Positions 1 through 16,717 of a stretch of 40,655 nucleotides of DNA are shown piece by piece. Below the pieces are notes generated by a model. That model did no database searches. It was not told the DNA's origin and saw nothing but the letters and a program-made list of their open reading frames with translations. Position 1 is the stretch's first letter; every line of letters begins with the position of its first letter. The stretch comes from Stramenopiles sp. TOSAG23-2 (lineage: Eukaryota). The DNA is taken from assembly GCA_900128395.1 (NCBI GenBank), contig LT649307.1, forward strand, positions 1 to 40,655, written 5' to 3'. Made by a program: the position numbers and the translations under genes.

Positions 1-1360
1 CATCCCAGTTGTATTCAGCACCTGCTTTGTATGGTCCTTTGTTGTATTCACCGTACACACGACCACCTCCAACATTTTCTTCTGCCTCATCCAAAAATGG
101 TGGGGGAATAGGAGGGTAGTTTCGAGGACCACCGACATTTGCATCTTCATCCCAGTTGTATTCAGCACCTGCTTTGTATGGTCCTTTGTTGTATTCGCCG
201 TATACACGTCCACCACCAACATTAGCTTCTTTCTCGTCCCAATAGTAACCCTTATTAGGCCTCCACGCGTGGTTTGAAGGCCTCAACGGTCTTGGGTTTG
301 AAATGCCAACTTGTTCATCCCAGTTGTATTCAGCACCTGCTTTGTATGGTCCTTTGTTGTATTCACCGTAAACACGACCACCTCCAATATTTTCGTTTCT
401 TTGTTGACGCTGACGGCATGCAACACAAGCCGGGCTCATTGACTGACAACACATTTCTGAATGTAATTCATCCCAGTTGTATTCACCACCTGCTTTGACT
501 GGTCCTCATCCCAGTTGTATTCAGCACCTGCTTTGTATGGTCCTTTGTTGTATTCACCGTAAACACGACCACCTCCAATATTTTCGTTTCTTTGTTGACG
601 CTGACGGCATGCAACACAAGCCGGGCTCATTGACTGACAACACATTTCTGAATGTAATTCATCCCAGTTGTATTCACCACCTGCTTTGACTGGTCCTTTG
701 TTGTATTCGCCATAAACTTTACCACCACCAACATCAACGAAAGCATCTTCATCCCAGTTGTATTCACCACCTGCTTTGACTGGTCCTTTGTTGTATTCGC
801 CGTAAACTTTACCACCACCAACCAAATTTTCTCCCAAGATGTCGTAACTTCCACCACATGCTTTCTTTGCATCGTTCACCACCTGCTTTGACTGGTCCTT
901 TGTTGTATTCGCCGTAAACTTTACCACCACCAACATTTTCTCCCAAGATGTCGTAACTTCCACCACATGCTTTCTTTGCATCGTTCATCCATCTTCTGTG
1001 AAGGCCATCGTTGTAGGTTGCCCATGGGCTCCATTTTCTACCATTACTAGATATACGTACAGCATTTTTAGCATTGCAGTTCTTATCATAAGCACAACTA
1101 TCGCTTACATCTCTATGCCAATAAGAATTGATTTGCCATAGACCACGGTCGTAACTGTTGGAGTTTTGACCACGTGCTTTGGTATCACCACGAGATTCTG
1201 CCCATGCTACAGCAACTGCTGTTGGACATGCGCTGGATGAACCACCGTTTCGTTTCCATACAGAAGCAACTCCACTCATTGATAAACGTTCTGCTCTTAC
1301 TCTTGACGATACAAACAATATGTATGCAATTGCAAATAAAATCATATCATAAATTTTCAT
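1..1360 (-). CDS. Secreted lysozyme-like (SLT/lysozyme-like fold) protein fused to a multi-core repeat peptide cassette; runs off the window; two frameshifting duplications in this assembly
   Basis: Hydrophobic N-terminal signal (MKIYDMILFAIAYILFVSSRVRA). Lysozyme-superfamily motifs AVAVAWAES (catalytic Glu position), DRGLWQINS and NAKNAVRISSNGRKWSPWATY. Repeats of VGGG(K/R)VYGEYNKGP(V/Y)KAG(G/A)EYNWDE follow. Bases 505..1 are open in the same frame as the ATG at 1360. Confidence 0.85.
315..697. repeat. Tandem duplication, period 191 bp (2 copies), frameshifts the CDS
   Basis: tcatcccagttgtattcagcacc... starts at 315 and again at 506; the copies look identical by eye. Confidence 0.9.
763..987. 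repeat. Tandem duplication, period ~112 bp (2 copies, one 3-nt indel), frameshifts the CDS
   Basis: ttcaccacctgctttgactgg...gcatcgttca starts at 763 and at 875; the first copy has accaaatttt where the second has acatttt. Confidence 0.9.
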
Positions 1361-1512
1361 CTTTGCTATCTTTTTTTTTTTTTTGTTTGGATATAAAAAA
1401 GTTCTGCTCTTACTCTTGACGATACAAACAATATGTATGCAATTGCAAATAAAATCATATCATAAATTTTCATCTTTGCTATCTTTTTTTTTTTTTGTTT
1501 GGATATAAAAAA
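1288..1512. repeat. Tandem duplication, period 113 bp, covering the start codon and signal peptide
   Basis: gttctgctcttactc...ggatataaaaaa at 1288-1400 and 1401-1512; the T-run is 14 nt in one copy and 13 nt in the other. Confidence 0.9.
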
Positions 1513-1846
1513 TTTCTTTATTTTCTTTTCTTTCTCTTGTTTTCTTTCCTGTTGTTTTAAATTTGTTAATATTCTTATTATATAAAATAAACTTTTGATT
1601 TATCTATAATGTACAATATATTGTCTTTTGTTTATATCTATTCTTTCGTACGCACGTACTATCTTCTTTATTTTAATATATTTACTATGGTATGTATATT
1701 GTATATATGTATATATTGTAAAAAAAATTTATTATGCTGCTATGGCGATGCTAATTTTTGGATCGATATTATTTTTTCAGTCCTCAACATTTCTAAAATA
1801 AGCATCGAAAAAAAAAATGCTGAAATGATGAAAAGACACGAAATTT

Positions 1847-1954
1847 GGCAATCCAGCAATCCAGCAATCTGGCAATCCAATCCGGCATCCGGCAATCCTG
1901 GCAATAGCAATCTGTGGCAAAATCTGCTGCTGCTGGCAATCCTCCTGGCAATCT
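1847..1954. repeat. Cluster of GCAATC(C/T) motifs in a divergent intergenic region
   Basis: About nine GCAAT copies; the first four are spaced 8 bp apart (gcaatcca). Confidence 0.8.
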
Positions 1955-2150
1955 TTCTCCATCAATTATTATTGCAACCATACGTAAATCTATATCATCT
2001 TTCATATTAGAACAACGGGATGGAGAATATATATGTATATATATATATATCTCAATGAATATATCATAAATAAAACATATAAAACGACACACGTAACACA
2101 CATACAAAAATAATAAAATAACAATTTAAAATCTATTTAACAAATTAATC

Positions 2151-3647
2151 ATGGCAACATTATCATACAATGAAACACAAGGGGCATTAAAAGCGAAAAT
2201 GGAAACATATGGGGAAGGACATGTATTTCAATATGCCACGGATGGACTTGAGTTACATACTTTATGTTCACAATTATCTGCAGTAGATATGGATAGACAA
2301 AAAGAATTATATCAAAAAGTGATCTGTGCAGCTGAATCTGGGTCAAGATTTGAAGGTGCTACTATTGAAGCTGTTAACAATCCAAATGCACTTACCTCTA
2401 CAGAAGAAGAGACCAAAAATCTATGGCATGATAATTATTACACGGCTTTATCACAAGGAAAGTTAGCTTTATTAATTCTTGCAGGTGGTGCTGGTACACG
2501 TTTAGGTTTTAATGGACCAAAAGGAAAATTTCGTGTAAACAGCCCGAGTAATAAATCATTATTTCAATTTCATTCTGAACGTGTTCGTAAATTGGAACTT
2601 TTAACCAAAGCGAAAAAAAATGTTGATGTGCGCATACCAGTATACATTATGACCAGTCCACAAAATAATGATGAAACTGTACTTTTTTTCGAGGAAAATA
2701 ATTATTTTGGTTTAGATTCAAGTTGTGTTACATTTTTTGCGCAAGGCACATTACCATGTTTCAGTAACGATGGTGGAAAATTGATGATGGAATCTCCGTC
2801 AAAACTTGCTGTTGCAGCTGATGGCAATGGTGGTCTTTACCCTGCAATGTACAACAATGGTATCTTGGATGATTTAAAAAATCGTGGTGTTGATTATATA
2901 CATACTATTTGTATTGATAATATTCTTGTACGTGCATTAGATCCTGCATTTATGGGATTAGTTGTTACATCAAAAGCAGAAGTTGGAAGTTTAACTGTTA
3001 AAAAACGTGCATGGCAAGAACCAATTGGCATGTTGGTGAAATTGAATGGCAAATATGCAATTGCTGAATATAGTGATGTTGATGATAAAATGAAACAGGA
3101 AACTACGAATGATGGTAAATTAAAATTTGAACAAGGTAATATTTGTATCCATGCATTTTCAACACAATTTTTAATTGAGAAAGTTGTACCACAATATGTG
3201 AAAAAAATTGTACCAGCAAACTATCACATAGCACGTAAACAAATCCCGGTTTACAATACGGAAACGAAAGAAACGGTCAAACCAAAAGAGAAAAATGGTG
3301 TAAAATTGGAAATGTTTATCTTTGATGTATTTGATTTCGCAGAATCAATGGCTATTTTACAAGTTCCACGAGAAGAACAATTTTCCCCAGTAAAAAATAA
3401 AGAAGGCCCAGGTGTAAAAGATTCACCTGGAACAGCTAGGGAAATGTTGTCTAATCTTCATAAAGAATGGTTAGTTGCTGCTGGTGCTACTATTAATGGA
3501 GATGGCCTTGTAGAAGTTTCGCCATTGGTATCATACAATGGCGAAGGCTTGGAAAGTTTTGCCGGAAAAACATTGCAAACACCATGTTTAATACAAGAAA
3601 AAGCACAAACAGATCCAAATGTATATTTTGTGGATAGTTCAATGTAA
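2151..3647 (+). CDS. UAP1: UDP-N-acetylglucosamine pyrophosphorylase
   Basis: 498 aa with LAGGAGTRLG..PKG, YIMTS, QGTLP, DGNGG, IDNIL, EYSD, GNICIH, KLEMFIFDVF, FSPVKN and EVSPLVSYNGEGL motifs. Confidence 0.95.
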   Translation: MATLSYNETQGALKAKMETYGEGHVFQYATDGLELHTLCSQLSAVDMDRQKELYQKVICAAESGSRFEGATIEAVNNPNALTSTEEETKNLWHDNYYTALSQGKLALLILAGGAGTRLGFNGPKGKFRVNSPSNKSLFQFHSERVRKLELLTKAKKNVDVRIPVYIMTSPQNNDETVLFFEENNYFGLDSSCVTFFAQGTLPCFSNDGGKLMMESPSKLAVAADGNGGLYPAMYNNGILDDLKNRGVDYIHTICIDNILVRALDPAFMGLVVTSKAEVGSLTVKKRAWQEPIGMLVKLNGKYAIAEYSDVDDKMKQETTNDGKLKFEQGNICIHAFSTQFLIEKVVPQYVKKIVPANYHIARKQIPVYNTETKETVKPKEKNGVKLEMFIFDVFDFAESMAILQVPREEQFSPVKNKEGPGVKDSPGTAREMLSNLHKEWLVAAGATINGDGLVEVSPLVSYNGEGLESFAGKTLQTPCLIQEKAQTDPNVYFVDSSM

Positions 3648-12625: not shown

Positions 12626-14470
12626 ATGCAGCGTCGAACGAGAGCGGTCGTGTTCCTGGTATTGTGCTTCGTCACGAATGCAAAAGCCTTTCAACCAGCT
12701 AACAGAATTGAATTAAAAAGCGCTGTAGATGCATGTTTACAAATAGATGATACAGGAAGGACGTGTGAAAAAGATGGCGTGCATATATCACTGTGGGATA
12801 CCTCCAAAGTTACTGATATGAGCAACATGTTTCACAAATATTATAAGTTTAACGGAAATGTAACAAACTGGGACGTTTCAAAAGTAACAACGATGTTTAA
12901 GATGTTTTATATGAACCAAAAATTTCAAGGAGACGTATCTAATTGGAACGTGGGAAAAGTTACAATTATGAGTGGTATGTTTTACTACTGCCGCAAATTT
13001 AATTCAGATCTGTCGAGTTGGGATGTTGGAAAAGTAACTAATATGGAGTATATGTTCGCTACTGCTAACCCTACTACTAACGAACAATTTAATAGCGATC
13101 TATCGAGTTGGAATGTTGGAAACGTCACAATAATGTCACATATGTTTTCTCAATCCAATTTTAATGGAGATATTTCTAATTGGGACGTAGGAAAAGTAAC
13201 CGAAATGAAGTACATGTTTTCAGGCGCTTCAAATTTTAATGGAAATATATCCAAATGGAATATCAGTAAAGTTAAATATATGCAAGGTATGTTTCATAAT
13301 TGCAGAAGCTTCAGCGGCGATCAAATTTCAAATTGGGACGTCTCTAACGTTATTCTTGTAACGGCAATGTTTAAAGGAGCCACCAACTTCAACGGTGATA
13401 TATCGAGTTGGAACCTTGGTAGAGTAACCCAGATGAATGGAATGTTTACAGAAGCTTCAAAATTTAATGGGGATATTTCTAATTGGAACGTCGGAAAGGT
13501 GACTTATATGGATTATATGTTTTCAGGCGCTTCCAGTTTTAACGGAGATATTTCTAATTGGAACGTGGGAAAAGTTACAAGTATGAATTATATGTTTTCA
13601 GGCGCTTCCAACTTCAACGGAGATATTTCTAATTGGAACGTGGGAAAAGTTACAAGTATGACTGGTATGTTTCGTTCAACCAATTATAATGGAGATCTCT
13701 CGGATTGGAACGTTGGCAATGTTAAATACATGTGGGGAATGTTTGAAGATAATAAAAAATTTAACGGAGATTTATCAAATTGGAATGTAGAAAAAGTACA
13801 GTATATGTTCAACATGTTTTCAGGTGCTTCCAATTTCAACGGCAATATTTCAAATTGGGACGTGGGAAAAGTTACAAGGATGGATTCGATGTTTGAAAGT
13901 GCTTCCAACTTCAACGGAGATATTTCAAATTGGAACGTTGCTCGAGTTACTAAAATGAGAAACATGTTCAAAAAGGCTACCAGCTTTAGTCCTACATGTG
14001 GGCAATGGGATTGTCCATTTCCTAGCAGCACAACATGTGCCTGTGTCTGCGACGTCAACGAAACCACAAGACCGGTACTGGTAACAACCACAAGACCGGT
14101 ACTGGTAACAACCACAAAAAGACCACCAAATACGGAGGCACAGAATGTTCATAATAATGGTAATGACAGTACTGATAGCATGGACACGCTATTGAGGATT
14201 TTAATTTTATCATTCGTTGGTTTATGCATATGTAGCATGCTAGGTTTTTTTGTAAAAGTATGGTTTGCACCACGACCTGAAGGAAATTCATTGCAAAATA
14301 GAAATACATGGAACATGAATGCGGTCGAATTAAAGCAAAGAAACCAACCACAAAACAAACAACAAATTCAAAATATAGATCCAGCATTAAATACACAACA
14401 TAATATTAACGTATTAAATCCAGTACGCGAATCTGCAGTTGTTGCGTTTAAACATAAAAATGCAATTTGA
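12626..14470 (+). CDS. DUF285/BspA-like (PARCEL) 25-aa repeat type I membrane surface protein
   Basis: Signal peptide; about 16 repeats of FNGDISNWNVGKVTxMxxMF; Cys patch; Thr-rich stalk (TTRPVLVT x2); TM segment ILILSFVGLCICSMLGFFV; cytosolic tail. Confidence 0.92.
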   Translation: MQRRTRAVVFLVLCFVTNAKAFQPANRIELKSAVDACLQIDDTGRTCEKDGVHISLWDTSKVTDMSNMFHKYYKFNGNVTNWDVSKVTTMFKMFYMNQKFQGDVSNWNVGKVTIMSGMFYYCRKFNSDLSSWDVGKVTNMEYMFATANPTTNEQFNSDLSSWNVGNVTIMSHMFSQSNFNGDISNWDVGKVTEMKYMFSGASNFNGNISKWNISKVKYMQGMFHNCRSFSGDQISNWDVSNVILVTAMFKGATNFNGDISSWNLGRVTQMNGMFTEASKFNGDISNWNVGKVTYMDYMFSGASSFNGDISNWNVGKVTSMNYMFSGASNFNGDISNWNVGKVTSMTGMFRSTNYNGDLSDWNVGNVKYMWGMFEDNKKFNGDLSNWNVEKVQYMFNMFSGASNFNGNISNWDVGKVTRMDSMFESASNFNGDISNWNVARVTKMRNMFKKATSFSPTCGQWDCPFPSSTTCACVCDVNETTRPVLVTTTRPVLVTTTKRPPNTEAQNVHNNGNDSTDSMDTLLRILILSFVGLCICSMLGFFVKVWFAPRPEGNSLQNRNTWNMNAVELKQRNQPQNKQQIQNIDPALNTQHNINVLNPVRESAVVAFKHKNAI

Positions 14471-15031: not shown

Positions 15032-16717
15032 ATGAATGAAGTGGATCGTTTTTCGGAAACGAAGGACGATGCCATAATGGTAGATCAAAAAAATGATAAC
15101 ATTGTAACAGCATCTTCAAAAATAAATGAACAACAAAAACTAACGGACGAACAAGAACAAGAGCAAATGGATAAAATATTAGAAGGTTCAGAAATCACAG
15201 ATAGTAGAATGCTAGGTAAATATACTGATCCGACACAAAATTTTGTAACTGATGCATTTTGTGCACAGATGTTAACTGGCGATATGGATCCAAACCGTGG
15301 TAGACAAGTTATTGAAGATTTACGTAAAGCTTTAGAAAGAAAACGTGCAAGGGAATTAGCTGAAGCAAGGGGAACCAAGGGAGGTGCAAAAGGGAAACGT
15401 AAATTGCAATTTGTAGGTCAATTAATAAATATTTTAGAGGAGATGTTTAAAGAATTAAATATGTTAGCAATAGTGCCAACAACTACTTTAAGAAAAGCAT
15501 GTAAAGAATTATTACAAAATAAAGGGTTTGAACGATATAACACCGTTTTTGCAACTAGTAAATGTCCTGAAAATCAAGTTGAAATATTTAGAAAAAATGA
15601 CTTTTTACCATTTGGTGGTCCAAAAGGTTATAAAATGGGCGGGCTTGGTGGCTTACCATCCTGTGGTGAAATGGGTATGTTTATGTTAAGCACATTAATT
15701 CCAGAGGATGATGGTAGAATTTTCATTGAATATGGATCTATATTTGGAATAGATGAATATGGTAAACCAGGAAAATCAGCACGTAAAGATGAAAGAAGTG
15801 CTTTGTTGGATGTTGTTAAATTACCAACATTTCCTGATATTGCTTTACGACGTTTGGAAAAAGAAATTATTGCGAAACGACAACAAAATTCAATATCAAC
15901 AGAAGCGCAAAGACGAATAATTCAAGCAAAGCAAAATAAGCAAGTGGAAAATTCAAAACGGGGAGATGGCAGTAATGATGATGATAATAATAATAATTTA
16001 AATGGTAGTGGCAAAGCACAAGCGGAAGGTAATAATGATGGGGAGGATGAAGAAGGTGATATTGATGAAATGAATGATGATAAATTGGAGCCTGATGAAT
16101 TTGATGAAGAATTAAATCATTTAAAGGAATCATTGGCATCGCATCTTAGAAATGTTAGGCGTTCGACACAGTCAGTGAAACGGGTGGCATATGGGTTATA
16201 CGATGAAATACGATCTGAAATTTCAAGTTTAGTGAAATATATTTTTGATAGTAAACGTGAAGAAGCTCAAGAATATTTAAATGAAAATGAACATAGATTT
16301 GAAAGGCAATATAAAAATGAATTGGCGTTAAGTATGACAAGAGAAGGTCGACGTGAATTGGAAAGTCGTGGTAGATTGCATTTGTACAGTAGAGATAGTA
16401 AAGATAGGCGAGAGAAAGACACATTGGAAAATAGAAATAGACATAGACTGAATGATTTATATCTTGATTTTGTAATACCAGTGGCTAGTTTAGGCTGTGT
16501 ACATATTGAAACACCCCCTTTGTTTCCAAATTTTGTTATTGTTCAACATTTTGAAATATTAATGAACGATGGTGATCGATTAGATTTAACACAAAAATTA
16601 TTTCGTAAAATACGTGAGGTAAGAGCTAAAGAGGAAGATGCATCATCAAGTGAAGAAGATGAAAATGAAGATGGAGAAGGTGATGATGGACATGGTGGTG
16701 ATGATGATTATGATTAA
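15032..16717 (+). CDS. LCIB/LCIC (theta carbonic anhydrase)-like protein, probably catalytically degenerate
   Basis: GFERYNTVFATSKCPEN, MGGLGGLPSCGEMG, IPEDDGRIFIEYGSIFGIDEYGKPG and C-terminal VASLGCVHIETP..NFVIVQHFEI occur in the order of LCIB-family motifs as I recall them. Confidence 0.72.
   Translation: MNEVDRFSETKDDAIMVDQKNDNIVTASSKINEQQKLTDEQEQEQMDKILEGSEITDSRMLGKYTDPTQNFVTDAFCAQMLTGDMDPNRGRQVIEDLRKALERKRARELAEARGTKGGAKGKRKLQFVGQLINILEEMFKELNMLAIVPTTTLRKACKELLQNKGFERYNTVFATSKCPENQVEIFRKNDFLPFGGPKGYKMGGLGGLPSCGEMGMFMLSTLIPEDDGRIFIEYGSIFGIDEYGKPGKSARKDERSALLDVVKLPTFPDIALRRLEKEIIAKRQQNSISTEAQRRIIQAKQNKQVENSKRGDGSNDDDNNNNLNGSGKAQAEGNNDGEDEEGDIDEMNDDKLEPDEFDEELNHLKESLASHLRNVRRSTQSVKRVAYGLYDEIRSEISSLVKYIFDSKREEAQEYLNENEHRFERQYKNELALSMTREGRRELESRGRLHLYSRDSKDRREKDTLENRNRHRLNDLYLDFVIPVASLGCVHIETPPLFPNFVIVQHFEILMNDGDRLDLTQKLFRKIREVRAKEEDASSSEEDENEDGEGDDGHGGDDDYD

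What the first reader, a model, noticed from the sequence alone, without database searches (positions are those of the whole stretch)
2..934. Repeated 23-mer looks like a porin beta-hairpin ending in a beta-signal
Seen: VGGGRVYGEY-NKGP-YKAGAEYNW is two short Gly/aromatic strands around an NKGP turn, present five times after de-duplication. Its last 8 residues, K-A-G-A-E-Y-N-W, fit the beta-signal consensus polar-x-G-x-x-hydrophobic-x-hydrophobic with a terminal aromatic. Known: BamA and Sam50 recognise such C-terminal strands; darobactin kills Gram-negatives by mimicking one; Gly-rich insect AMPs (diptericin, hymenoptaecin) end in similar G-x-x-[YF]-x-F strands. Inference: the released hairpin could jam BamA or oligomerise into a beta-barrel or amyloid-like pore, giving the lysozyme access through an outer membrane.
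Basis: inference. Interest (0 to 1): 0.7.

Follow-up and report, generated by a model that had tools for sequence, protein, structure and literature searches.

The report
Conserved hairpin cassette in lysozyme polyprotein
The repeated 23-residue peptide is real and strongly conserved, but it looks like the constant building block of a modular secreted lysozyme-plus-peptides precursor of a marine protist rather than a proven mimic of the bacterial outer-membrane insertion signal.

Summary
The minus strand of window 5-934 encodes 6 full and 1 truncated 23-mer, 5 after removing tandem duplications that a 96-99% identical contig carries once. They follow a signal peptide and an SLT_3 lysozyme domain. 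The unit VGGG[KR]VYGEYNKGP.K.G.E.N[WF] occurs in 74 of 129 retrieved proteins, 1-6 copies each. It matched no Pfam family at the gathering score and nothing in two paper searches. Copies of one peptide differ only at third codon positions.

The unit is one cassette among many: cationic amphipathic, Pro-rich, His-rich and Cys-rich. All share a junction: hydrophobic residue, D-E, acidic run, V-G. RRL, a known diatom processing motif, is enriched 13-fold.

My best reading (0.45) is a proteolytically processed antibacterial polyprotein.

The beta-signal motif fits 60 of 75 units, but three things weaken it:
- The terminal aromatic is a general cassette boundary.
- No protein ends at the unit.
- BamA binding could not be tested, because the tool was lost.

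Only weak, unreplicated matches to Porin_4 and to a designed transmembrane barrel support a porin-like hairpin.

The parts
1292..1360 (-). Start codon and 23-residue hydrophobic N-terminus (MKIYDMILFAIAYILFVSSRVRA), read as a signal peptide
   Evidence: Translation and ORF. The signal-peptide reading is an inference from the sequence; no predictor was run.
1016..1246 (-). SLT_3 (PF18896) lysozyme-like domain with the AESRG Glu-Ser motif
   Evidence: E 1.5e-24, 86.7 bits against a cut-off of 27, residues 39-115 of ORF 809-1360(-). E55 and S56 are nearly invariant in alignment A1.
754..822 (-). Unit A1: VGGGKVYGEYNKGPVKAGGEYNW
875..934 (-). Truncated second copy of unit A1 (20 residues), inside a ~112-nt tandem duplication that shifts the frame
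   Evidence: The stretch is single-copy in L001.
733..753 (-). Acidic spacer DEDAFVD
   Evidence: The same spacer between two A units is seen in P0035.
664..732 (-). Unit A2: VGGGKVYGEYNKGPVKAGGEYNW
   Evidence: It differs from A1 by 1 synonymous codon.
580..663 (-). DE + four-Cys cassette LHSEMCCQSMSPACVACRQRQQR + NEN. A duplicate copy lies at 389-472.
   Evidence: Related MCCQ-type cassettes occur in P0013, P0040, P0042 and P0125.
511..579 (-). Unit B1: IGGGRVYGEYNKGPYKAGAEYNW. An exact duplicate copy lies at 320-388.
315..696 (.). Exact 191-nt tandem duplication (315-505 = 506-696), most likely an assembly artefact; it shifts the frame
   Evidence: 100% identity. Single-copy in L001.
221..319 (-). 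DE + Pro/Arg-rich cassette QVGISNPRPLRPSNHAWRPNKGYYW + spacer DEKEAN
   Evidence: L001 has a different Gly/Pro-rich cassette at this place.
152..220 (-). Unit B2: VGGGRVYGEYNKGPYKAGAEYNW
74..151 (-). Spacer DEDAN + Pro-rich cassette VGGPRNYPPIPPPFL + spacer DEAEEN
   Evidence: The same cassette occurs in P0001 and P0028.
5..73 (-). Unit B3: VGGGRVYGEYNKGPYKAGAEYNW. The gene then runs off the left end of the window.
   Evidence: It differs from B2 by 4 synonymous and 0 non-synonymous codons. In L001/P0001 a further ~300 residues follow.
1284..1517 (.). 113-nt tandem duplication (97%) covering the 5' end of the gene and its upstream T-run
   Evidence: Single-copy in L001.

Best explanation
The 23-mer is the constant cassette of a lineage-specific family of secreted, modular pro-proteins of a marine eukaryote (protist).

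In this gene the order is: signal peptide, an SLT_3 (GH23-like) lysozyme domain, then five units alternating with unrelated short cassettes (four-Cys, Pro/Arg-rich, Pro-rich). By the intact relative, a ~300-residue C-terminal domain of unknown family follows.

Every cassette, the unit included, is framed the same way. It starts with V/I-G after an acidic run. It ends with a hydrophobic, mostly aromatic residue followed by D-E.

I read these frames, together with the RRL sites, as proteolytic junctions. After secretion or delivery to a digestive vacuole the precursor would be cut. That would yield free lysozyme, variable cationic, Pro-rich and Cys-rich peptides, and several copies of a near-neutral Gly/Tyr-rich peptide.

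That peptide most likely folds as an amphipathic beta-hairpin, with two cross-strand salt bridges and a Tyr-on-Gly pair. The W-D-E end is therefore a junction signature, not a beta-signal as such.

Shown: the repeat, its conservation, the cassette architecture, the shared junction signature, the RRL enrichment and the lysozyme domain.

Inferred: the cleavage, the hairpin fold and the antibacterial purpose.

Open: whether the freed hairpin peptide is itself active. I lean to yes, because pure tandem arrays of it exist and it is as conserved as the enzyme.
For: Spread of the unit:
- An exhaustive HMMER search of 1.84 billion representatives gave 42 hits at E<=1e-3.
- No Pfam family reaches the gathering score.

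Frame of the unit:
- Of 75 units in the first 69 proteins, the residue before is N in 54.
- The next residue is D in 73 of 75, and the one after is E in 72 of 75.
- The regex fixed positions 2, 3, 13 and 14 and restricted others.

The same frame on unrelated cassettes:
- 71 of 126 cassettes that follow an acidic spacer are not the unit.
- 20 of 27 distinct short ones end in W/F/L/M/I/V before D[EQD].
- Outside units, 70 of 100 acidic-run starts follow a hydrophobic residue, against a background of 26%.
- 68 of 131 [VI]G follow at least 2 acidic residues, against a background of 13%.

Cassette content differs between near-identical sequences:
- The window and L001 (96-99.6% identical) differ by one extra unit and one swapped cassette.
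- P0002, P0005, P0071 and P0119 carry 4, 1, 5 and 6 units.

Purifying selection:
- 9 copies of one peptide are encoded by 6 DNA versions. All 10 variable sites are third codon positions.
- Unit identity to P0001 across relatives is 76-97%, against 76-98% for the lysozyme domain.

Processing motif:
- RRL occurs 39 times against 3.0 +/- 1.7 in 200 shuffles, and 18 of 62 proteins end in RL.
- RRL/RXL is described as a proteolytically removed motif of diatom secretory proteins (PMC5525289, passages).

Charge pattern:
- The variable cassettes of P0002 and P0003 carry +5 with a helical moment of 0.33-0.35. The spacers are acidic.

Precedent:
- An ant hymenoptaecin precursor has seven repeated hymenoptaecin-type domains; each hymenoptaecin domain is flanked by an acidic EAEP spacer and an RR site (PMC3415428, abstract).
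Against: No cleavage product has been seen, and no proteomic data were available.

The residue before V-G-G is not fixed. It is N in 54 of 75 units, Q throughout P0119, and D in P0120. So no single known protease specificity fits.

The unit also lies in proteins that do not look like peptide precursors:
- before a transmembrane stretch in P0053;
- next to an ephrin-receptor-like Cys-rich region in P0120;
- next to ankyrin repeats in P0124.
That distribution would suit an uncleaved module as well.

The counts come from related sequences, many of them fragments of metagenome or transcript contigs, so they are not independent.

Copy-number differences between short contigs may partly be assembly collapse.
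Confidence: 0.45

Rival explanations
1. The unit is an uncleaved structural or binding repeat. It would be a small aromatic-faced beta-hairpin that stays in the mature protein and either tethers lysozyme and other secreted domains to a surface (peptidoglycan or another glycan) or simply spaces domains. In that case the acidic runs are plain linkers.
For: One face of the modelled hairpin carries Y10, Y/V15, Y/W21 and W/F23.

Copy number varies from 1 to 6, and the unit is attached to many different domains. Wall-binding repeats behave this way (recalled knowledge of LysM and choline-binding repeats).

Pure tandem arrays lie between the lysozyme and the C-terminal domain in P0119 and P0074.
Against: No match to any binding-repeat family in Pfam at E<=0.1, and none in the PDB with the unit profile.

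Unrelated cassettes share the same start and end signature, which plain linkers would not need.

The cassettes between units look like classic cationic amphipathic peptides flanked by acidic pieces.

AlphaFold2 gave no packed repeat domain, though at low confidence.
Confidence: 0.22
2. The hairpins insert into membranes as a beta-barrel. Either 4-6 units of one chain form an 8-12-stranded OMP-like barrel with the variable cassettes as loops, or freed or single hairpins assemble into a pore in the bacterial envelope.
For: The hairpin model is amphipathic. It has aromatic residues at both ends of the apolar face, small residues in the middle, and a polar face with a Y-G-E network.

The tandem period is 29-31 residues.

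Porin_4 (PF13609) scored 17.6, 16.9 and 15.9 bits (E 0.0035-0.012) in P0119, P0116 and P0037.

The only PDB match of the six-unit array is 6X9Z, a de novo eight-stranded transmembrane barrel (E 0.0017, 20.9 bits). Its design rules are glycine kinks, Tyr-Gly-Asp/Glu 'mortise-tenon' motifs and aromatic girdles (bioRxiv 10.1101/2020.10.22.346965, passages).
Against: All the Porin_4 scores are below the cut-off of 27. They are absent in 4 of the 7 array proteins and in all other unit-bearing proteins scanned.

The 6X9Z match appeared in 1 of 6 PDB searches with a low-accuracy alignment.

Three to four of the ten residues on the apolar face are Gly.

Copy number is not fixed.

AlphaFold2 predicted no strands in a four-unit array, though at low confidence.

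In such a barrel the lysozyme would stay on the side of the loops.
Confidence: 0.1
3. The unit is only a pro-piece. It would be a constant spacer that aids folding, sorting or charge masking of the neighbouring cassettes and is discarded after cleavage, with no activity of its own.
For: It usually alternates with variable cassettes, as in P0002, P0071, P0001 and the window.

Unit plus spacer is acidic overall, while neighbouring cassettes are cationic.

The junction signature also works without the unit, as in the P0010/P0080 lineage.
Against: Pure arrays of 4-6 units with nothing to mask exist.

The unit is as conserved as the catalytic domain, and differences between copies of one peptide are all synonymous. 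That is unusual for a throw-away spacer.
Confidence: 0.12
4. The freed hairpin ends in a beta-signal mimic that pairs with strand beta-1 of BamA and blocks outer-membrane protein assembly.
For: The last 8 residues fit the consensus in 60 of 75 units and in 30 of 38 distinct sequences. The background is 0.41% of 8-mers.

Inhibition of BamA by beta-signal mimicry is real biology for darobactin and for the C-terminal peptides of lectin-like bacteriocins (PMC10945584, passages; bioRxiv 10.64898/2026.09.25.754295, abstract).
Against: The terminal aromatic followed by D-E is common to unrelated cassettes, none of which fits the motif (0 of 27).

12 of 75 units have His at the third-last place.

No protein ends at the unit (0 of 74).

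The known protein mimics use a receptor-binding domain to deliver the peptide (abstract), and nothing comparable is seen here.

The motif is what any Gly-containing amphipathic strand with an aromatic end would give.
Confidence: 0.03

Closest known systems
Multipeptide antimicrobial precursors (ant hymenoptaecin, PMC3415428 abstract; honeybee apidaecin and Impatiens Ib-AMP polyproteins, recalled)
   Same: A signal peptide is followed by repeated peptide units separated by short acidic spacers with conserved junction residues. Copy number varies. The presumed purpose is to amplify antibacterial peptides.
   Different: Here the precursor is headed by a lysozyme domain and mixes one constant unit with unrelated cassettes and whole domains. 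The junctions are hydrophobic/D-E and acidic/V-G plus RRL, not RR/KR with EAEP. The organism is a marine protist. Processing is not shown.
Beta-signal of outer-membrane proteins and its mimics (darobactin; C-terminal peptide of lectin-like bacteriocins and L-type pyocins)
   Same: The eight-residue pattern polar-x-G-x-x-aromatic-x-aromatic at the end of an amphipathic strand.
   Different: The pattern is not at a free C-terminus in any of 74 proteins. It is broken in 15 of 75 units. No delivery domain is present. No binding test could be run.
Transmembrane beta-barrel hairpins (Pfam Porin_4; designed barrel TMB2.17, PDB 6X9Z)
   Same: A ~30-residue hairpin period, a GGG stretch in a strand, Tyr opposite Gly with a nearby Glu, and aromatic residues at both ends of the apolar face.
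   Different: The scores are below threshold and not replicated. The apolar face is Gly/Ala-rich. Copy number varies from 1 to 6. The setting is a secreted eukaryotic protein. No barrel was predicted.
Diatom RXL/RRL-processed secretory proteins (silaffins, silicanin; PMC5525289 passages)
   Same: A signal peptide, RRL tripeptides enriched at domain borders, and a polyprotein-like build.
   Different: No Lys/Ser-rich silaffin composition. A lysozyme and peptide cassettes take the place of silica-forming regions.
Cell-wall-binding repeats of lysins (LysM, choline-binding repeats; recalled)
   Same: Short aromatic-rich repeats in variable number attached to peptidoglycan hydrolases.
   Different: No profile match. 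The units are separated by unrelated peptide-like cassettes with a shared junction signature.

Membership tests
OMP beta-signal / beta-signal mimic | Eight-residue motif polar-x-G-x-x-[aromatic/hydrophobic]-x-[aromatic/hydrophobic] (PMC10945584) | tested here: met
   The motif fits all 5 distinct window copies. It fits 60 of 75 units and 30 of 38 distinct sequences. Background is 40 of 9818 8-mers.
OMP beta-signal / beta-signal mimic | The motif lies at the free C-terminus of the chain | tested here: not met
   0 of 74 unit-bearing proteins end at the unit. D-E follows in 72-73 of 75. Exposure would need an unproven cleavage.
OMP beta-signal / beta-signal mimic | Pairs with BamA strand beta-1 or inhibits BAM | not testable with these tools
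Transmembrane beta-barrel (Porin_4 and similar) | Profile match at or above the family's gathering score | tested here: not met
   15.9-17.6 bits against a cut-off of 27 in 3 of 7 array proteins. No match in the other unit-bearing proteins scanned.
Transmembrane beta-barrel (Porin_4 and similar) | A closed barrel of amphipathic strands in a structure model | tested here: inconclusive
   AlphaFold2 models had mean pLDDT 38.1 and 41.6, with the repeats as coil. Even the lysozyme domain was poorly modelled because the alignments were shallow.
Multipeptide antimicrobial precursor | Signal peptide plus repeated peptide units with conserved spacers and junctions | tested here: met
Multipeptide antimicrobial precursor | Recognised processing sites (dibasic, RR/KR, or a lineage-specific equivalent) | tested here: inconclusive
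   There are no dibasic sites at unit borders. RRL is enriched, at 39 occurrences against 3.0 +/- 1.7, and is known as a cleaved motif in diatoms. However, it lies at only some borders.
Multipeptide antimicrobial precursor | Peptides are released and kill microbes | not testable with these tools
   This needs peptidomics and activity assays.
SLT_3 / GH23-type lysozyme-like domain (the head of the protein) | Profile match above the cut-off, with the catalytic Glu in an E-S motif | tested here: met
   PF18896 at E 1.5e-24, 86.7 bits against 27. E55 and S56 are nearly invariant in A1.
Known cell-wall-binding repeats (LysM, CW_binding_1, SH3b, PG_binding) | Profile match to the repeat family | tested here: not met
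   No Pfam family at E<=0.1 for the repeat ORFs. The unit profile found nothing in the PDB at E<=10.
Cationic disulfide-stabilised beta-hairpin peptides (protegrin and tachyplesin type; recalled definition) | Strong positive charge and Cys bridges across the hairpin | tested here: not met
   Net charge is 0 to +1 and the unit has no Cys.

The most novel reading that the evidence does not exclude
Arrays of the unit, or assemblies of freed units, form an outer-membrane-protein-like transmembrane beta-barrel in the envelope of prey or competitor bacteria. The hypervariable cationic cassettes would be its surface loops. On this reading a eukaryote encodes a 'porin mimic' fused to a lysozyme, possibly entering through or jamming the BAM pathway.
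Probability: 0.1. Interest if true: 0.9.

Novelty: new variant of a known kind. Interest (0 to 1): 0.5.

Why it matters
If the cassette reading is right, a marine protist makes a lysozyme and a changeable set of antibacterial-looking peptides from one precursor. One highly conserved 23-residue hairpin would be the most abundant product. That gives:
- a natural counterpart to engineered lysozyme-peptide fusions;
- a source of new peptide scaffolds;
- a way to annotate a family of marine metagenome and metatranscriptome ORFs that currently has no name.

The shared junction signature also points to an unknown processing protease. If instead the hairpins prove to be membrane-inserting, this would be a new class of eukaryotic weapon aimed at the Gram-negative outer membrane.

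Tried and rejected
**Complex prediction.** The job was lost on the remote machine. There is no result, so neither BamA pairing nor self-assembly was tested.

**AlphaFold2.** I modelled P0001 with 13 sequences and P0007 with 12 sequences. Mean pLDDT was 38.1 and 41.6, and the repeats came out as coil. This is too weak to use either way.

**Protein Atlas.** There was no usable hit for the C-terminal domain. The second call was closed.

- The run search alone shows 20 of 24 listed runs holding part of window 1-2200.
- 3 runs hold half or more of the sampled words.
- 6 runs on record as RNA hold shares of 0.35-0.37.
- Because nothing was laid, I do not know which part they hold and do not count it as proof of expression.

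**Genome look-ups.** No genome is held for this window.

**Earlier findings of the scan.** Nothing was found.

**PDB sequence searches.**
- Window repeats: best hit E 0.0072, to a light-harvesting polyprotein, over the Pro/Arg cassette and not the unit.
- Unit profile: 0 hits.
- P0039, P0074 and P0120: nothing relevant.

**Literature.**
- 'YGEYNKGP' and 'PF18896': 0 papers each.
- diatom/lysozyme/antimicrobial peptide/phycosphere: none of the 12 listed titles concerns such a protein.

**Ideas considered and dropped.**
- Legumain-type cleavage after Asn as the universal junction. The residue before V-G-G is Q or D in whole lineages.
- Charge covariation as proof of the hairpin. The one unit with K16E also has E20Q and is not compensated.
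- Plastid targeting of the neighbouring LCIB-like protein as a clue to taxonomy. No presequence was seen.

Full report
**What is in the sequence.**
Window 1-1360 carries, on the minus strand, the 5' two-thirds of one gene. It starts at 1360 with a 23-residue hydrophobic N-terminus, which I read as a signal peptide from the sequence alone. A lysozyme-like SLT_3 domain follows (PF18896, E 1.5e-24, 86.7 bits against a cut-off of 27).

Full 23-residue copies sit at 754-822, 664-732, 511-579, 320-388, 152-220 and 5-73. A truncated copy sits at 875-934. A degenerate DNA pattern for the central YGEYNKGP finds 7 sites, all in 33-916, against none in 100 shuffles.

**Tandem duplications.**
The raw window holds three tandem duplications:
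- 315-505 = 506-696, 100% identical, 191 nt;
- about 112 nt within 763-987, 97% identical;
- 113 nt within 1284-1517, 97% identical.

The first two, which lie inside the coding region, shift the reading frame, which is why the gene appears as three overlapping ORFs.

Locus L001 comes from a 27.9-kb contig. It is syntenic with the window (same UDP-sugar pyrophosphorylase neighbour) and 96-99.6% identical. It carries each duplicated stretch once and holds an intact 662-residue ORF, P0001.

There are five distinct units:
- two read VGGGKVYGEYNKGPVKAGGEYNW;
- three read [VI]GGGRVYGEYNKGPYKAGAEYNW.

I could not confirm the artefact with reads, because the read-laying run was stopped by a filter.

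**The unit is a conserved, selected element.**
- B2 and B3 encode the same peptide with 4 synonymous and 0 non-synonymous codon differences.
- Across the window and six loci, 9 copies of that peptide are encoded by 6 DNA versions. All 10 variable sites are third codon positions.
- A search of 1.84 billion representative proteins with the window's 151-residue repeat ORF gave 42 hits at E<=1e-3.
The split is 39 with one, 21 with two, 5 with three, 6 with four, 2 with five and 1 with six. Many are fragments.
- Relative to P0001, units in six relatives are 76-97% identical. The lysozyme domain is 76-98% identical.
- The unit matches no Pfam family at the gathering score. The unit profile finds nothing in the PDB.
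- Two full-text searches, for the motif and for the Pfam accession, returned no paper.

**Context: a modular precursor.**
The intact relatives show what lies beyond the window's left end. After the last unit comes a ~300-residue domain with no Pfam match, containing an RRL site and ending in RL.

Between units lie unrelated short cassettes.
- In the window these are a four-Cys piece, a Pro/Arg-rich piece and VGGPRNYPPIPPPFL.
- In close relatives they include cationic amphipathic pieces with net charge +5 and a helical moment of 0.33-0.35. The unit has charge 0 to +1 and a helical moment of 0.18-0.23.
- Other relatives carry His-rich, Gly/Pro-rich and Cys-rich pieces.

The window and L001, although nearly identical in DNA, differ by one extra unit and one swapped cassette. 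P0119 has six pure tandem units. P0074 has four. P0005 has one.

The unit also occurs without the lysozyme:
- before Cys-rich cationic domains (P0028, P0034, P0120);
- before an amidase-like tail (P0042);
- after a homologue of the C-terminal domain (P0128);
- in front of a transmembrane stretch (P0053).

**The junction signature.**
Of 75 units found by a regular expression in the first 69 proteins:
- the residue before is N in 54;
- the next residue is D in 73 of 75, and the one after is E in 72 of 75;
- the last residue is W in 46 and F in 26.

The expression fixed positions 2, 3, 13 and 14 and restricted some others, so invariance there is partly by construction.

The same frame surrounds cassettes that are not the unit.
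- 71 of 126 cassettes following an acidic spacer are not the unit.
- Of 27 distinct short ones, 20 end in W/F/L/M/I/V before D[EQD]. In that count P0058 and P0018 were left out as unrelated hits.
- Outside units, 70 of 100 distinct acidic-run starts follow a hydrophobic residue, against a background of 26%.
- 68 of 131 distinct [VI]G follow at least two acidic residues, against a background of 13%.
- RRL occurs 39 times against 3.0 +/- 1.7 in 200 shuffles, and 18 of 62 proteins end in RL. Seven unrelated hits were dropped for that count.

RRL is described as a motif typical of diatom secretory proteins whose N-terminal piece is removed by an unknown protease (PMC5525289, passages read). These counts come from related sequences and are not independent. 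Still, the pattern is what a polyprotein with common processing junctions would show. The ant hymenoptaecin precursor is a precedent: repeated domains flanked by acidic EAEP spacers and RR sites (PMC3415428, abstract).

**The beta-signal claim.**
The published consensus is polar-x-G-x-x-[aromatic/hydrophobic]-x-[aromatic/hydrophobic] (PMC10945584, passages). The last eight residues fit it in all five window copies, in 60 of 75 units and in 30 of 38 distinct sequences. The motif fits 0.41% of 8-mers in 13 other ORFs of the window. So the literal fit is real.

Three results weaken its meaning:
1. The terminal aromatic followed by D-E is the general cassette boundary, and none of the 27 other cassettes fits the full motif.
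2. 12 of 75 units carry His at the third-last place, in sequences that are otherwise just as constrained.
3. None of 74 unit-bearing proteins ends at the unit. Natural C-termini in the family are ...RL. A free Trp depends on a cleavage exactly after it, which my junction reading makes plausible but does not show.

The known protein mimics of the beta-signal deliver their C-terminal peptide with a lectin domain bound to BamA (bioRxiv 10.64898/2026.09.25.754295, abstract). Nothing equivalent is visible here.

**The hairpin and 'porin-like' claim.**
I took N11-K12-G13-P14 as the loop. Under that register:
- E9 faces K16 and K/R5 faces E20;
- in 48 distinct units, 82 of 84 charged cross-strand pairs have opposite sign, while the two neighbouring registers give almost no charged pairs;
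- Y7 faces G18 in 45 of 48 units;
- I6 always faces G19, in 10 of 10 units.

One face is V/I6, G8, Y10, V/Y15, A/V17, G/A19, Y/W21, W/F23. The other is K/R5, Y7, E9, K16, G18, E20, N22. This is a consistent model, not a demonstration. The pairs hardly vary, and the one unit with K16E is not compensated.

Late in the work two weak similarities to membrane barrels appeared.
- Pfam Porin_4 scored 17.6, 16.9 and 15.9 bits (E 0.0035-0.012, cut-off 27) in three proteins with pure tandem arrays. It did not appear in four other array proteins, nor in any other unit-bearing protein scanned.
- The six-unit array of L002 found a single PDB sequence, 6X9Z (E 0.0017, 20.9 bits). This is the designed eight-stranded transmembrane barrel TMB2.17. 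Its design used glycine kinks, Tyr-Gly-Asp/Glu motifs and aromatic girdles (bioRxiv 10.1101/2020.10.22.346965, passages).
- The other five PDB searches found no barrel.

I take this as a lead that the unit shares the 'grammar' of membrane beta-hairpins. It is not evidence of a barrel. AlphaFold2 gave no strands for the repeats, but at pLDDT 21-42 and with a poorly modelled lysozyme domain, so that result is uninformative.

**Organism and setting.**
The window is eukaryotic.
- GC content is 29-39%.
- It has long ORFs without stops.
- Its neighbours include an ABCA transporter, BTB_2, Yip1, ankyrin, a ClpX-like ATPase, a DUF285 protein and an LCIB-like carbonic anhydrase.
- No genome is held for it.
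- Relatives come from marine metagenome and metatranscriptome collections.

The RRL motif hints at a stramenopile, but I did not establish the taxon.

**Verdict.**
The best-supported reading (0.45) is that the 23-mer is the constant cassette of a processed, lysozyme-headed antibacterial polyprotein, and that its W-D-E end is a junction signature.

Rivals:
- an uncleaved structural or binding repeat (0.22);
- a discarded pro-piece (0.12);
- a membrane-inserting barrel or pore (0.10);
- a BamA-jamming beta-signal mimic (0.03).

The family is unnamed, and my searches found nothing on it in print. I class it as a new variant of a known kind, the multipeptide antimicrobial precursor.

Noticed in passing
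window 315-696, 763-987, 1284-1517: Three tandem duplications (191 nt exact; ~112 and 113 nt at 97%) within 1.5 kb. The first two, inside the coding region, break the reading frame. They are single-copy in the near-identical contig L001, so they look like assembly artefacts, perhaps merged alleles (one copy reads GEN-VGGG, the other GENL-VGGG).
   Followed up: yes
window 221-319 versus L001:3652-3873: Two sequences 96-99.6% identical in DNA carry different cassettes at the same place. The window has a Pro/Arg-rich 25-mer and L001 has a ~75-residue Gly/Pro-rich stretch. The window also has one extra unit. Cassette turnover is therefore fast while the unit stays fixed.
   Followed up: partly
window 580-663 (copy at 389-472): A four-Cys cassette of the type MCCQ[SA]M.P.C..C recurs in P0001, P0013, P0040, P0042 and P0125 with different flanks. 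It is a second conserved cassette family.
   Followed up: no
L001:4150-4986 (beyond the left end of the window): A ~280-residue C-terminal domain with no Pfam match is shared with P0020, P0021 (lysozyme without units) and P0128 (domain first, units last). It has an RRL site near its start and ends in ESPFRL.
   Followed up: partly
family proteins P0001-P0069: RRL occurs 39 times against 3.0 expected, and 18 of 62 proteins end in RL. 6 of those 18 end in the same peptide ...GNWINFRL, preceded by QPSHT[KR]PHMPD.
   Followed up: partly
P0036 (relative, not in window): The same signal peptide and first residues as the window's gene are joined directly to cassettes, with the lysozyme domain missing. 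This may be a paralogue, a splice form or an assembly product.
   Followed up: no
P0010, P0012, P0042, P0080 (relatives): A ~150-residue C-terminal domain with a Cys...His...Asp-like pattern and no Pfam match follows an RRL site. It may be a second cell-wall hydrolase.
   Followed up: no
window 1847-1953: All five GGCAATC words of the 40.6-kb window lie within 107 bp of the divergent intergenic region between the lysozyme gene and the UDP-sugar pyrophosphorylase gene. The total count (5) is what chance gives (4.15), but the clustering is not.
   Followed up: no
window 12626-14470 and 15032-16717: A 614-residue protein made of DUF285 repeats (E 1.9e-150, 5 stretches) lies next to an LCIB-like beta-carbonic-anhydrase-domain protein (E 4.8e-18) that has no obvious targeting peptide.
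   Followed up: no
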